Origin: Paraspadella gotoi | Taxonomy: Eukaryota; Animalia; Chaetognatha | DNA: 64,000 bases | Direction of reading: 5' to 3' | Assembly: GCA_051294375.1 (NCBI GenBank) | Contig: CM119269.1 | Span: forward strand, 13,610,790 to 13,674,789 | In this document: one piece after another, positions 22,024-52,100 of the stretch | How positions within the stretch are numbered: the stretch's first letter is position 1 | How the letters are laid out: each line of letters starts with the position of its first letter | Made by a program: the position numbers and the translations under genes | The notes under the pieces: model-generated | What the model was told of the DNA's origin: nothing | The model's database searches: none | The model's input: the letters and a program-made list of their open reading frames with translations, nothing else

Positions 22024-22943
22024 AAAAAATATTTTTGTTTGTAGTAGTTTCATCATCGCCTTTGTAAGGTTTGGTATCCTAAATCCACTTTCCAAGGAAG
22101 TAAAGGCATAAATATTTCCTCGCCAAATCTTATTGTTATTAATTTTGTACTAATTTGCCAAGCGTACGATTGGCAGAAACTGAAAGTTTGTCATGAACAT
22201 TTGTTCCTTCCGACTCGTGATGTTCGCGAATCGGTCGGAGTTGTTCTTTAATATTGTTACAGTCGATATCACTTGCTACATTTTTTTAATGTACTGTTTG
22301 ATTTTTTTTTAATTTTTTTTTTTCAATTCTACATAAAATCCAAATTTTTTTTCCGGATTTGCAATCCTCGAACTGCAACTATGTGCAGGCACAGATAAAA
22401 CTTTCCCGATACAATCATATTTTTAAAATCCTTTTTTCTTAGCTCGTCTCGGTTGTATCCTTAGCCCGATCCTAGTTTTTGACATCTTCGTTATGCTATT
22501 TTTACCTGTGTTATCGCCGACTGTATTGTTGAACAATATAACTATCATGTCTCACTTTACTTGGCTTCTTTTTTAACGAGGAAGTTGTATAAAGTTTTGA
22601 AATGTTAGACATAGAGTAGAGCTCTAGAGAACAAAAATTAGATTTAAGTGAACAAACAAGAATATTTAGATGTGAGATAGTATGATTTTTTGGGGAACAG
22701 TATCATAAAATACAATATAGGCTTATTTTTACATTCGCCGACCAAGATTTTTGTATAAGAATCTCTCTACGCAAAAATTAAAAAAAAATATTGGAAAGGG
22801 TAAAAAAATTTATTACAAATTCTTAACCATCTTTAACCAACCTTAACACAATTGTTAACCGTTTAAAAAATATAACATAAAAATATTGTTCCTTTCTTCT
22901 TGTTTATTTACGCAAAACGAGTTTTAATAAAAAACATAATTTT

Positions 22944-22979
22944 CGAACATTTTTCGGCATCAATGTAAACCTTCATCAG
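22944..22979 (-). ncRNA. Degenerate minimal type I hammerhead ribozyme
   Basis: CTGATGA-A-GGTTT-ACATTG-ATGCC-GAAA-AATGT-T. Confidence 0.55.
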
Positions 22980-49100: not shown

Positions 49101-52100
49101 TGCTTGAGCGGGATTTTTTCTCTCGAATAACAAAATCCCGTTTGTCTCTTAAATCTCCATTGCATTAAAAGCCATACGTAATAGCTAGATTTCTTTTCAT
49201 TTTTTTAATATTATTTTCCGTTTTTTTGGTTTTTTGGTTTTTTTTTTTGCTTTCTTGTCGCCTTATAAGTACTGGCGGAGCAAGTCAATGAGTCACTTTG
49301 TCTGTCTGTCTATCTGTCTGTCTGTCTTTCTGTCTGTCTGTTTCACTTTAGCTTATGATTGAAAAAAAAATTTTTGTTGTTTTATGACCATTTGGTTATG
49401 ATTTGGTAATTGAGTAACAATTAATATTTTCATACAAAGTTATATTTCAAATTTGTATTTTTGGATTTTATAATCCCCTAAAAATCGTATAATGTAAAAA
49501 TAGATATTTTGTGAATAAATTTTAAAGATAATATGCAAATAAGTTTTAAAATGAGGCTTATAAAAAAAAAAAAACAAATGTCTAAACCTAAGTTCAACCC
49601 CTCGTAATTGTCGTTCTTCGTTTCTTCACCATCTTCTTCCTCTTTCTCCCCCCCCCCTCGCAGCTGCCCGGCGGTGGCGGGCAAGAGCCGCACGTCCACC
49701 TGGTCCCGTCGCCCGACAAATACCGCGGGAAGTTTCGAGACGACGAATTCGATGAGGAAGAGATTTCGCGTCTTTACTTGGAGGAAGTGAAGAGGACGGT
49801 GGAGAAGGCGAAGGAGAAGGTGGGAGAGGGAGGGGGAGAGAGGGAGGAAGGGAGAGAGGAAGGAAGGGGGAGAGAGGAAGAGAGGGAGGAAGGAAAGGAT
49901 GTAAAGACGAAGGGGTCGACTTATAATGTGAGGAAACGAAAGAGGAAAGGAATGAAGGAGTCACCGAGCGCGCGAAGGGGTTGGGCGAAACCCGTGAAAG
50001 CCACAGAAAAAAGTTGCCTTGATAACAAGTGGTGAAAAAAAAAGATAAAGTAGACCCCTGAGGAAGAATAAGGAAAAATCTTAAAAGCATAAGGATCAAG
50101 CCATGATGATAGTCATTCATTGATGCGATGATAGTCTTCATTGACGCGATGAATCATTCATCGTAAATAAAACAAACAAATGCGTGTATGAGTGAAAGAG
50201 AGAGAGAGAAGAGAGAGAGGAGAAGAGAAGAGAGAGGCTGGACGTTTTCCCGCCAACGAAACGCATTATTAGGTCTCTCTCGTTTATATAAAGAATAATC
50301 AGAATTTTTAGGGAAAAAATCCACGAAAATCTCGGATGTAAATTTGGGATTTTGTATTGAGAAAAAAGCGGGAATAAATGGCGATAATAAAAAGTTTTTA
50401 GAAGGAAAAAAAAGAGAGAGAGAGAGAGAGAGAGAGAAAGAGAAGAGAGAGAAGCTGGACAGCCGCTGAACCGCCGCTGGACCGCCGTGCAGAGCTGAAC
50501 TCATTTTCCGACGAATATGAGTAGGGACGAACTCTTTTCCTTTCTATAAAAAAATATTACAAAATAAATATTTGGGTATAGAGCCATATAAGAAATTTTT
50601 GTACATTGAAAGTAAACTTAAAAATGCATAAATTTTTGTTTGAGCATGTTCCCATACTAAATTTTTGATTCACCCCATTGAGAGGGGCTACCCCTATTCA
50701 GAAGAAAAAAAACTAAACTCTTTTCAATAATAATGATCCAAAAATTATAATCCCTATTAACAAAATATATAGTTGAAAATACTCAGTTAACGACTATGAT
50801 ATTTTTGACTTCCAAATATTTTTTTTACTTATCAAAAAAAATTTTATTTCCTCATTTTAAAAAATTTTAATCTTGAATGAAATTTTTGATTGTTCTTTTT
50901 TTAGGAAGAAACCAGACCGAGGTCAAATTTTATATTTGCATATTTAATTAATTTATAAATAGTTATCACAACTCAAATAATTATTAAAAAAAGATAAAAA
51001 TGATTAAATATATACACTAAAAATATTTATAAATTTAATAATAGTATAAATTATCAGAATAACAAAAAAAGTAATGTTTAATTTGACTATATCTCTCTTA
51101 TCAACTCCTATTTTAGATATAATTTGCCAATAGTGGGCCAACCGGTTCAAAGTTACAATAATAAATAAATACAAATTTATTTTTTTTAAATGTAATGCAT
51201 ATTGTTCGGCGAAAGTGCTGCATATATAATAAGTCACATTAGCTGATTTATATGTGACAATGCATGTCAATATAAGTTATTCTTCACTTTTTTAAAAATG
51301 TATCCACGAAAATCTCGGATGTAAATTTGGGATTTTGTATTGAGAAAAAAGCCCCGAATAAAAGTTTTTAGAAAGAAAAACATGTTTCGGCTCTTTCATT
51401 TAAGCCTTCATCAGTGTTTGACAATCAATATTTTGTCTCTGTTGAAGTAAGTTTTTGCTTTGCTCTCTCTCTCTCTCTCTCCCACTCTCATTTCATTTTT
51501 CAAAGACTTACTTCTTCCCTCTCCTCACCTTCAGCTGTCCCCTCACATCTGACCACTGTCCCTTACCTTACCTTACCTTATTGTTGGAAATTCTCCCTCA
51601 ATTTTTCTCTCTCTCTCTCTCCCTCTTTCTCTCTCTCAAAAACTTACTTCAACAAAGACAAAATATTGATTGTCAAACACTGATGAAGGCTCTAAATGAA
51701 AGAGCCGAAACATGTCTGACTAAAAATTGTGTCAAATAAATCGTTGTCAAACAAAACTGTTTTTCCTAATACCTCAAAAACAACGAAAAGAGAGTATATA
51801 CATAAAGAAAGAAAAACATAATCATAATTTTTCAAAAAAAGAACGATCACGTAAAAGATCGAAAAGAGAGAAAGAGACAGAAAGAAAAAGAAAGAGAGAG
51901 AAAGAGAGACAAAGCTGGACAGCTGCTTGAAGGCCGCTGTACAGTCAGTGCAGTAACTGAACTCGTTTTTTCTGAAATAAAAGAATAAAAGAAATAAAAT
52001 AAATAAAAGAAAGGCAAAAAATGTTACAATGGTTTACAATTTGAAATTTTTCCAATTTTTTCCAATCGCAGCTTGTAAAAGATTTTATTTTTATTTGTAT

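What the first reader, a model, noticed from the sequence alone, without database searches (positions are those of the whole stretch)
22886..51805. Family of short palindromic retro-insertions carrying a hammerhead ribozyme on each strand
Seen: three loci (22886-23199, 40564-41711, 51384-51805) share one architecture: TSD, arm with antisense hammerhead, CT/AG-rich core, arm with sense hammerhead, short tail, TSD. The four cores in B and C read CUGA(U/A)GA-A-GGCU...AGCC-GAAACAUGU-H; the two in A are decayed versions. Helix-II loops and arm sequences differ between loci while the core and pairing are kept. TSDs are 12, 13 and 14 bp. B and C share a tail (AAATCGTTGT..CAAACA..AAACT..TTCCT..CAACGAAA). 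Known: minimal type I hammerheads with a palindromic helix III typify Penelope-like element (PLE) pseudo-LTRs and are thought to cleave as dimers; PLEs often insert with inverted pLTRs; variable-length TSDs fit target-primed reverse transcription. Inference: these are non-autonomous, MITE-sized PLE derivatives whose inserted unit is a ribozyme palindrome. Three divergent copies in 64 kb suggest a high genome-wide copy number.
Basis: partly seen in the sequence, partly recalled or inferred. Interest (0 to 1): 0.92.

Follow-up and report, generated by a model that had tools for sequence, protein, structure and literature searches.

The report
Head-to-head Penelope retrotransposon stubs
These three short mirror-image insertions are real, but they are most likely ordinary leftover ends of Penelope-type jumping genes pasted back to back, a layout already described in print, and their self-cutting RNA motifs are probably silent passengers.

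Summary
The three insertions are real. Exact 12-, 13- and 14-bp target duplications flank inverted arms that carry six minimal type I hammerhead cores, and sequencing contigs show the empty site of C with one copy of the 14-mer. The layout (inverted pLTR copy, one-sided tail, TSD, hammerheads 100-700 bp apart on opposite strands) is published for Penelope-like elements (PMC3846280, PMC8557442, PMC4209133). In other animals' DNA the same motif has an outward-facing partner in 33 of 104 loci, no homologous partner faces inward, and 9 of 104 loci hold Penelope-type RT/GIY-YIG remnants. Nothing shows the palindrome moving as a unit: A, B and C have different inner junctions, and elsewhere equal junctions came with equal flanks. 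No ORF remnant or autonomous partner was found in this window, and no genome was held. The scan had already filed 34 findings under these words in at least 16 genomes. One detail worth keeping: C's inverted arm begins at the ribozyme's cut site. Verdict: new member of a known kind, low interest.

The parts
22874..22885 (+). A: left target-site duplication, 12 bp
22886..23045 (-). A: left copy (pLTR end read on the minus strand), with a (CT)n tract at its inner end
22946..22979 (-). A: decayed minimal hammerhead (palindromic helix III changed, helix II weakened)
23046..23199 (+). A: right copy, starting just 3' of where the (CT)n tract would be
23089..23133 (+). A: decayed minimal hammerhead (13-nt duplication in loop II, 2 nt lost before the cut site)
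23200..23211 (+). A: right target-site duplication
40551..40563 (+). B: left target-site duplication, 13 bp
40564..40928 (-). B: inverted, tail-less copy: pLTR end, (CT)n tract and about 135 nt of body homologous to C's body
40622..40656 (-). B: minimal hammerhead, GUC triplet, one base lost from helix I
40929..40938 (.). B: assembly gap (10 N) inside an AG tract
40939..41487 (.). B: unassigned interior (26% GC part, then 56% GC part); no domain and no second copy in the window
41488..41711 (+). B: right copy, beginning within the (CT)n tract
41579..41613 (+). B: minimal hammerhead, 4-bp helix I (AACG/CGUU), 5-bp helix II, GUU triplet; the most complete of the six
41669..41711 (+). B: one-sided 43-nt tail, homologous to C's 3' end
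41712..41724 (+). B: right target-site duplication
51370..51383 (+). C: left target-site duplication, 14 bp; its last four bases (ACAT) also match the element at the cut site
51380..51457 (-). C: short inverted copy, from the edge of the (CT)n tract to the cleavage triplet; hammerhead core at 51380-51414 without the 3' strand of helix I
51458..51805 (+). C: 5'-truncated copy with two (CT)n tracts, body, hammerhead and full 3' end
51680..51716 (+). C: minimal hammerhead, GUC triplet, 6-bp helix II, only 2 bp of helix I in register
51806..51819 (+). C: right target-site duplication

Best explanation
A, B and C are most likely three separate insertions of 5'-truncated Penelope-like retroelements, each leaving two head-to-head copies of the element's hammerhead-bearing end between target-site duplications. 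Shown: the TSDs, arms, motifs, different inner junctions, and the empty site of C. Inferred: an RT/GIY-YIG protein encoded elsewhere in the genome nicked both strands of an AT-rich target 12-14 bp apart. Each free 3' end would then prime reverse transcription on the pLTR region of element RNA, one at the outer start site (giving the tail) and one further in. Both cDNAs would stop early, the shorter one at or next to the (CT)n tract, and be joined head to head (about 0.55 for this two-primer step; self-priming on an antisense RNA, as proposed in PMC3846280, gives the same layout). The hammerheads are likely inherited passengers: minimal, dimer-dependent, partly decayed, one per strand, and predicted to be paired with their own antisense copy.
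For: TSDs and arms; six cores beyond chance. Empty site of C: contigs join 51369 to 51806 and 51375 to 51812 (skip 436 = 422 + 14; one contig each in X1), a 434-skip in X9, and 3 X1 contigs run from 51383 straight into the sequence after the right TSD. B's 43-nt tail and C's right end stop at the homologous place. Published layout: inverted pLTRs, 8-10 bp TSD, 31-bp optional tail (PMC3846280); inverted 5'-truncated copy and 30-40 bp tail (PMC8557442); dual minimal hammerheads 100-700 bp apart on opposite strands (PMC4209133). A purified PLE protein cleaves and extends both strands, prefers AT-rich DNA and starts at two sites that define the tail (PMC11167929). Same motif in other animals' DNA: 33 of 104 loci outward-facing, 0 inward, 1 tandem; 9 of 104 with RT/GIY-YIG remnants, in L013, L072, L070, L014, L019 and L044 ending 470-570 nt upstream of the hammerhead on the same strand. 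Helix I paired in 239 of 316 cells against 176 +/- 7 shuffled. Whole-unit folds of A and C pair the arms.
Against: No RT or GIY-YIG remnant in the window (best tblastn E 0.41; Pfam on 8 frames inside B gave nothing), so the PLE link for these three families rests on motif and layout, and on ORFs seen in other organisms. A has no tail, and its perfect TSD sits beside arms only about 78-85% alike. Only 1 of 32 outward pairs elsewhere (L074) shows a clear, well-placed TSD of 10 bp or more. No listed contig piece spans C's whole palindrome. B's interior (40939-41487) is unexplained. The empty-site contigs come from a high-copy host repeat, so they need not be the allelic site.
Confidence: 0.85

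Rival explanations
1. The palindrome is itself a non-autonomous family: a master copy with two outward hammerheads is transcribed and retrotransposed whole by a PLE enzyme in trans.
For: All three are short and non-coding. PLE pLTRs can mobilise unrelated DNA in trans (PMC3846280), non-autonomous PLEs are known (PMC8557442), and B has an unassigned interior. A's arms are more diverged than its perfect TSD suggests, which would fit an older palindrome moved later.
Against: Three loci, three different junctions; the longer copy is the inverted one in B but the tailed one in C. Among 32 outward pairs elsewhere, all 6 groups with equal spacing also share outer flanks, and in both cases where one family occurs in two flank contexts the spacing differs (later indels could cause that). 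C's inverted arm begins at a 4-base match with its own target, which points to formation at this site.
Confidence: 0.08
2. They are MITEs (DNA transposon derivatives) whose terminal inverted repeats happen to contain a hammerhead-like motif.
For: Short, non-coding, long inverted repeats, TSDs.
Against: TSD length varies (12, 13, 14); the repeats are not terminal on the right in B and C (43- and 89-nt one-sided extensions); no shared termini; the motif is tied to RT/GIY-YIG remnants in other animals.
Confidence: 0.02
3. The inverted arms are assembly artefacts (fold-back or collapsed repeats).
For: Draft assembly with gaps, one inside B; no listed contig piece spans C.
Against: Arms differ from each other at every locus, TSDs are exact, and the empty site of C removes exactly the element plus one TSD.
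Confidence: 0.03

Closest known systems
Endonuclease-bearing Penelope-like elements with inverted pLTR and tail (Adineta vaga Pen2/Pen2a, PMC3846280; scheme in PMC8557442)
   Same: Head-to-head inverted copy, one-sided tail of about 30-40 nt, variable TSD, strong 5' truncation
   Different: Here no ORF is left, TSDs are 12-14 bp rather than 8-10, the end carries (CT)n tracts, and A has no tail
Minimal hammerheads of metazoan PLEs, including opposite-strand pairs 100-700 bp apart in Schistosoma mansoni (PMC4209133)
   Same: CUGANGA core, extra base before helix II, G10.1-C11.1 pair, short helix I, palindromic helix III, dispersed and paired copies
   Different: Other host and sequence families; helix II is 5-6 bp here; no cleavage assay here
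Poseidon element PAc of Anolis carolinensis (PMC11167929)
   Same: AT-rich targets, tail, hammerhead in the pLTR; both-strand extension would explain the layout
   Different: No start codon at helix II here; C's short arm starts at the cut site, whereas that paper found no RNA ends there and insertion did not need cleavage
Metazoan non-LTR retrozymes (PMC7229834; bioRxiv 10.64898/2026.07.22.740005)
   Same: Non-coding, type I hammerhead, AT-rich, probably moved by PLE enzymes, long TSDs
   Different: Retrozymes are head-to-tail repeats with same-strand hammerheads that release circular RNA; these are head-to-head with one motif per strand

Membership tests
EN+ Penelope-like element insertion | Single ORF with RT and C-terminal GIY-YIG | tested here: inconclusive
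   Absent from the window, as expected for truncated copies; present beside the same motif in 9 of 104 loci of other organisms; the host genome could not be searched
EN+ Penelope-like element insertion | Minimal type I hammerhead in the pLTR | tested here: met
   Six cores beyond chance; traits match PMC4209133
EN+ Penelope-like element insertion | Inverted 5'-truncated copy, head to head | tested here: met
   3 of 3 loci
EN+ Penelope-like element insertion | Optional one-sided 30-40 bp tail | tested here: met
   B 43 nt; C ends at the homologous place but its left arm is 89 nt shorter; A none
EN+ Penelope-like element insertion | Variable target-site duplication at AT-rich sites | tested here: met
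   12, 13, 14 bp; empty site for C
EN+ Penelope-like element insertion | Direct partial tandem (pLTR-ORF-pLTR) | not testable with these tools
   No full-length copy in the window and no genome held
Active hammerhead ribozyme | Self-cleavage as monomer or dimer | not testable with these tools
   Needs an assay; by sequence only B's right copy has a 4-bp helix I, with a GUU triplet
Active hammerhead ribozyme | Helix covariation across copies | tested here: inconclusive
   Met for helix I in 79 distinct contexts from other organisms (239/316 against 176 +/- 7, relatedness not controlled); six motifs in the window are too few
Non-LTR retrozyme | Head-to-tail repeats with same-strand hammerheads | tested here: not met
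   All three pairs lie on opposite strands
MITE | Terminal inverted repeats, fixed TSD length, uniform unit | tested here: not met
   One-sided extensions, TSD 12/13/14, three different junctions

The most novel reading that the evidence does not exclude
Locus C records a Penelope RNA that its own hammerhead had cut in vivo: the target's 3' end (ACAT) paired with the cleaved end (AUGU-C) and primed the inverted copy. Ribozyme cleavage would then make one of the priming ends of PLE insertion, and the (CU)n tract just upstream would set where the short copy stops, giving stubs of stereotyped size.
Probability: 0.15. Interest if true: 0.5.

Novelty: new member of a known kind. Interest (0 to 1): 0.15.

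Why it matters
As it stands it matters little: these are further examples of a published insertion layout, in an animal whose lineage was not determined. Their use is as footprints of how Penelope elements insert, which is still unsettled. If inverted arms often began exactly at the cut site, that would be genomic evidence that the PLE hammerhead cleaves in vivo and supplies a priming end, which the one in-vitro study read here did not see (PMC11167929). C lies between exons of a host gene and B probably in an intron, so they would put long hairpins into host pre-mRNA.

Tried and rejected
Whole genome: none held, so no genome-wide counts. Rfam scan: no hit on the six motifs; a weak Hammerhead_II match at 37816-37874 (E 4.7) lies in coding-like ankyrin sequence and was rejected as chance. 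A looser core at 46088 (minus strand) reads CUGAGAA and has no partner or homology to the arms; rejected. Pfam on 8 frames inside B and on 15 stop-free fragments of L011, L013 and L070 found nothing; tblastn with PLE proteins found the remnants in the loci but nothing in the window. An eye-catching 'TSLWEH' stretch in B was not supported as GIY-YIG. Sequencing runs: no RNA holder listed; all four runs laid on C were contigs, so depth was not used as copy number. No read or contig evidence was obtained for A or B. The in-window paralogue of C's host repeat (about 50305-50517) lacks the element but has also lost the TSD region to an AG tract, so it does not fix the boundary. TSD search in 32 outward pairs elsewhere gave one clear case; none of the 32 inverted arms stopped at the cut site (shortest extension 22 nt). 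Host lineage: an SLC6 exon gave named hits of at most 84% across several animal phyla and unnamed ones at 90-97%; not resolved. Lunse et al. (PMC5785218) is not held; B was not folded because of its N gap.

Full report
Observation. All three loci are at the stated coordinates. The flanking direct repeats are exact and 12, 13 and 14 bp long, and the arms are complementary at 100/118 (A), 180/188 (B) and 77/78 (C) aligned positions. Random placements gave a repeat of 12 bp or more in 2 of 2826 trials. The motif CTGANGAAGGCT with at most one mismatch occurs six times in 64 kb, once in each arm; none of 100 shuffles reached six. A strict core with a G-C-closed helix II occurs four times, in B and C, against 0.03 in 60 shuffles. 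Rfam did not detect them.

C's left motif ends at the cleavage triplet and lacks the 3' strand of helix I. C's right motif has only 2 bp of helix I in register. B's right motif has a 4-bp helix I but a GUU triplet, and B's left motif has lost a helix I base. Both motifs of A are damaged. A has no demonstrable tail: its post-cleavage ends score 29.0 and 28.5 against B, with shuffle means of 25-26. B contains a 10-N gap.

Anatomy. B and C are related over the whole end. The body between two (CT)n tracts scores 81.5 against 45.3 +/- 5.9 (500 mononucleotide shuffles; pyrimidine-rich, so read with care), and the 3' ends score 76.5 against 34.3 +/- 4.9. Their right ends stop at the homologous place, and B's left copy stops 43 nt short, which defines a tail. 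The inner junctions differ: in B the inverted copy is the long one, in C the tailed copy is, and A shares only the core. In all three the shorter copy ends at or beside the (CT)n tract upstream of the ribozyme (3 of 3; too few to test). B's interior at 40939-41487 has no domain, no PLE match and no second copy in the window.

Insertion evidence. No genome was held. Eleven public runs hold C's region in whole or part; four were laid, all as contigs. C's flanks belong to a high-copy repeat. Contigs join 51369 to 51806 and 51375 to 51812 (skip 436, the 422-bp element plus one TSD; one contig each in X1), one in X9 skips 434, and three X1 contigs continue from 51383 directly into the sequence after the right TSD. 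The target therefore held the 14-mer once. These may be paralogous rather than allelic sites, and no listed piece spans the palindrome. Nothing comparable was obtained for A or B. The last four target bases (ACAT) are complementary to the AUGU just before the cut site, so C's inverted copy begins there with a 4-base match.

Context. The host is an animal; lineage unresolved. An SLC6 transporter gene spans about 17700-21000, ending some 1.9 kb before A. B lies about 40 nt upstream of an acceptor-like TTTTCCAG and about 70 nt upstream of a candidate start codon of a minus-strand ankyrin-repeat gene (intron position inferred). C lies between exons of a class III aminotransferase gene.

Relatives elsewhere. 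These come from other organisms. A homologous partner faces outward in 33 of 104 (29 within 1.5 kb), inward in 0 and in tandem in 1; among the 46 loci with at least 1.5 kb upstream, 17 have an outward partner within 1.5 kb. A relaxed motif search also showed a few non-homologous neighbours. Nine of 104 loci hold remnants similar to proteins with RT and GIY-YIG domains; in L013, L072, L070, L014, L019 and L044 the ORF ends 470-570 nt upstream of the hammerhead on the same strand, and L013/L072 carry the endonuclease end in both arms. Helix I is paired in 239 of 316 cells over 79 distinct contexts (from 103 of 104 loci) against 176 +/- 7 in 2000 shuffles, with several pair types per position; relatedness was not controlled. 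I dropped L099 (partner only 64 nt away, possibly a self-match) and examined 32 pairs further. All six groups with equal spacing share outer flanks, and in the two cases where a family occurs in two flank contexts the spacing differs, though later indels could explain that. Against generality: only L074 shows a clear TSD, and none of the 32 arms stops at the cut site.

Literature. PMC3846280 (passages) gives the typical Penelope insert as inverted pLTRs, an 8-10 bp TSD and an optional 31-bp tail, most often head to head, and proposes self-priming on an antisense template. PMC8557442 (passages) describes the inverted 5'-truncated copy and the 30-40 bp tail. PMC4209133 (parts 1-2 of 4) defines the minimal hammerhead, reports pairs 100-700 bp apart on opposite strands, and found no cleavage of monomers and weak cleavage of dimers. 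PMC11167929 (parts 1-2 of 4) shows a PLE protein cutting AT-rich DNA, extending both strands and starting at two sites that define the tail; cleavage by the hammerhead needed the protein and was not needed for insertion. Retrozymes are head-to-tail (PMC7229834, passages; bioRxiv 10.64898/2026.07.22.740005, part 1 of 5). PMC8969392 and PMC6765202 were seen as passages; the dimer study of Lunse et al. is known to me only through the latter. No supplements were read; those of PMC4209133 may show the opposite-strand pairs in detail. Five searches listed no paper on a palindromic unit that transposes whole, nor on arms starting at the cut site; most subscription journals are not covered.

Mechanism. 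Shown: structure, TSDs, the empty site of C. Inferred from the cited work: a PLE enzyme supplied in trans nicks both strands, each end primes a cDNA on the pLTR region, both stop early and are joined head to head. The hammerheads are likely passengers. One transcript carries only one of them, so the dimer cannot form within the unit, and the predicted folds of A (-92.7 kcal/mol) and C (-133.7) pair each motif with its antisense copy. Confidence 0.85 for ordinary PLE truncation products, 0.08 for a unit-length family, 0.03 for artefact, 0.02 for MITE.

Earlier notes. Nothing was on file for this genome. A word search gave 34 findings in at least 16 genomes, and the eight shown reach the same reading. 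My reading was recorded before I saw them; they are unchecked notes and are not counted as support.

Verdict. Real, well observed, and ordinary: a new member of a known kind, interest 0.15. The one open lead is C's arm starting at the cut site (probability 0.15 that it records cleavage, since a 4-base microhomology explains it equally and 0 of 32 pairs elsewhere show it).

Noticed in passing
window 51000-51383, 51806-52100 and 50305-50517: C sits inside a high-copy host repeat; a second, element-free copy of part of that repeat lies 1 kb upstream (58/61 identical over 50319-50378). The repeat's nature was not identified.
   Followed up: partly
window 41141-41487: A 56% GC stretch inside B, in a 26-38% GC element, with no domain match and no second copy in the window: ORF end of an unrecognised PLE clade, or captured DNA.
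   Followed up: partly
window 22886-23199: A's arms are nearly identical before the ribozyme (36/38) but much more diverged after it, while the TSD is perfect; the two arms may have been copied from two different RNAs.
   Followed up: no
window 40522-40564: B lies about 40 nt from a splice-acceptor-like site near the start of an ankyrin-repeat gene, so it could affect splicing.
   Followed up: no
window 41706-41714 and 40536-40544: The end of B's tail shares a 9-mer (AATAATAAC) with the left flank, overlapping the TSD edge.
   Followed up: no
window 57282-57726: Tandem repeat of period 89 bp (about five copies, up to 92% alike) in the aminotransferase region; another of period 37 near 58600-58920.
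   Followed up: no
L006, L018, L027, L032, L035, L040, L053, L068: Eight loci share one 260-bp hammerhead palindrome and its flanks, and the flank holds another hammerhead-like core: a palindrome carried inside a larger repeated or orthologous unit.
   Followed up: partly
L001-L104: The base at the cleavage position is A in 66 of 103 motifs, C in 20, U in 12 and G in 5.
   Followed up: no
L010, L052, L073, L092: Arms stay complementary almost to the centre (fold-back junctions), unlike A, B and C.
   Followed up: no
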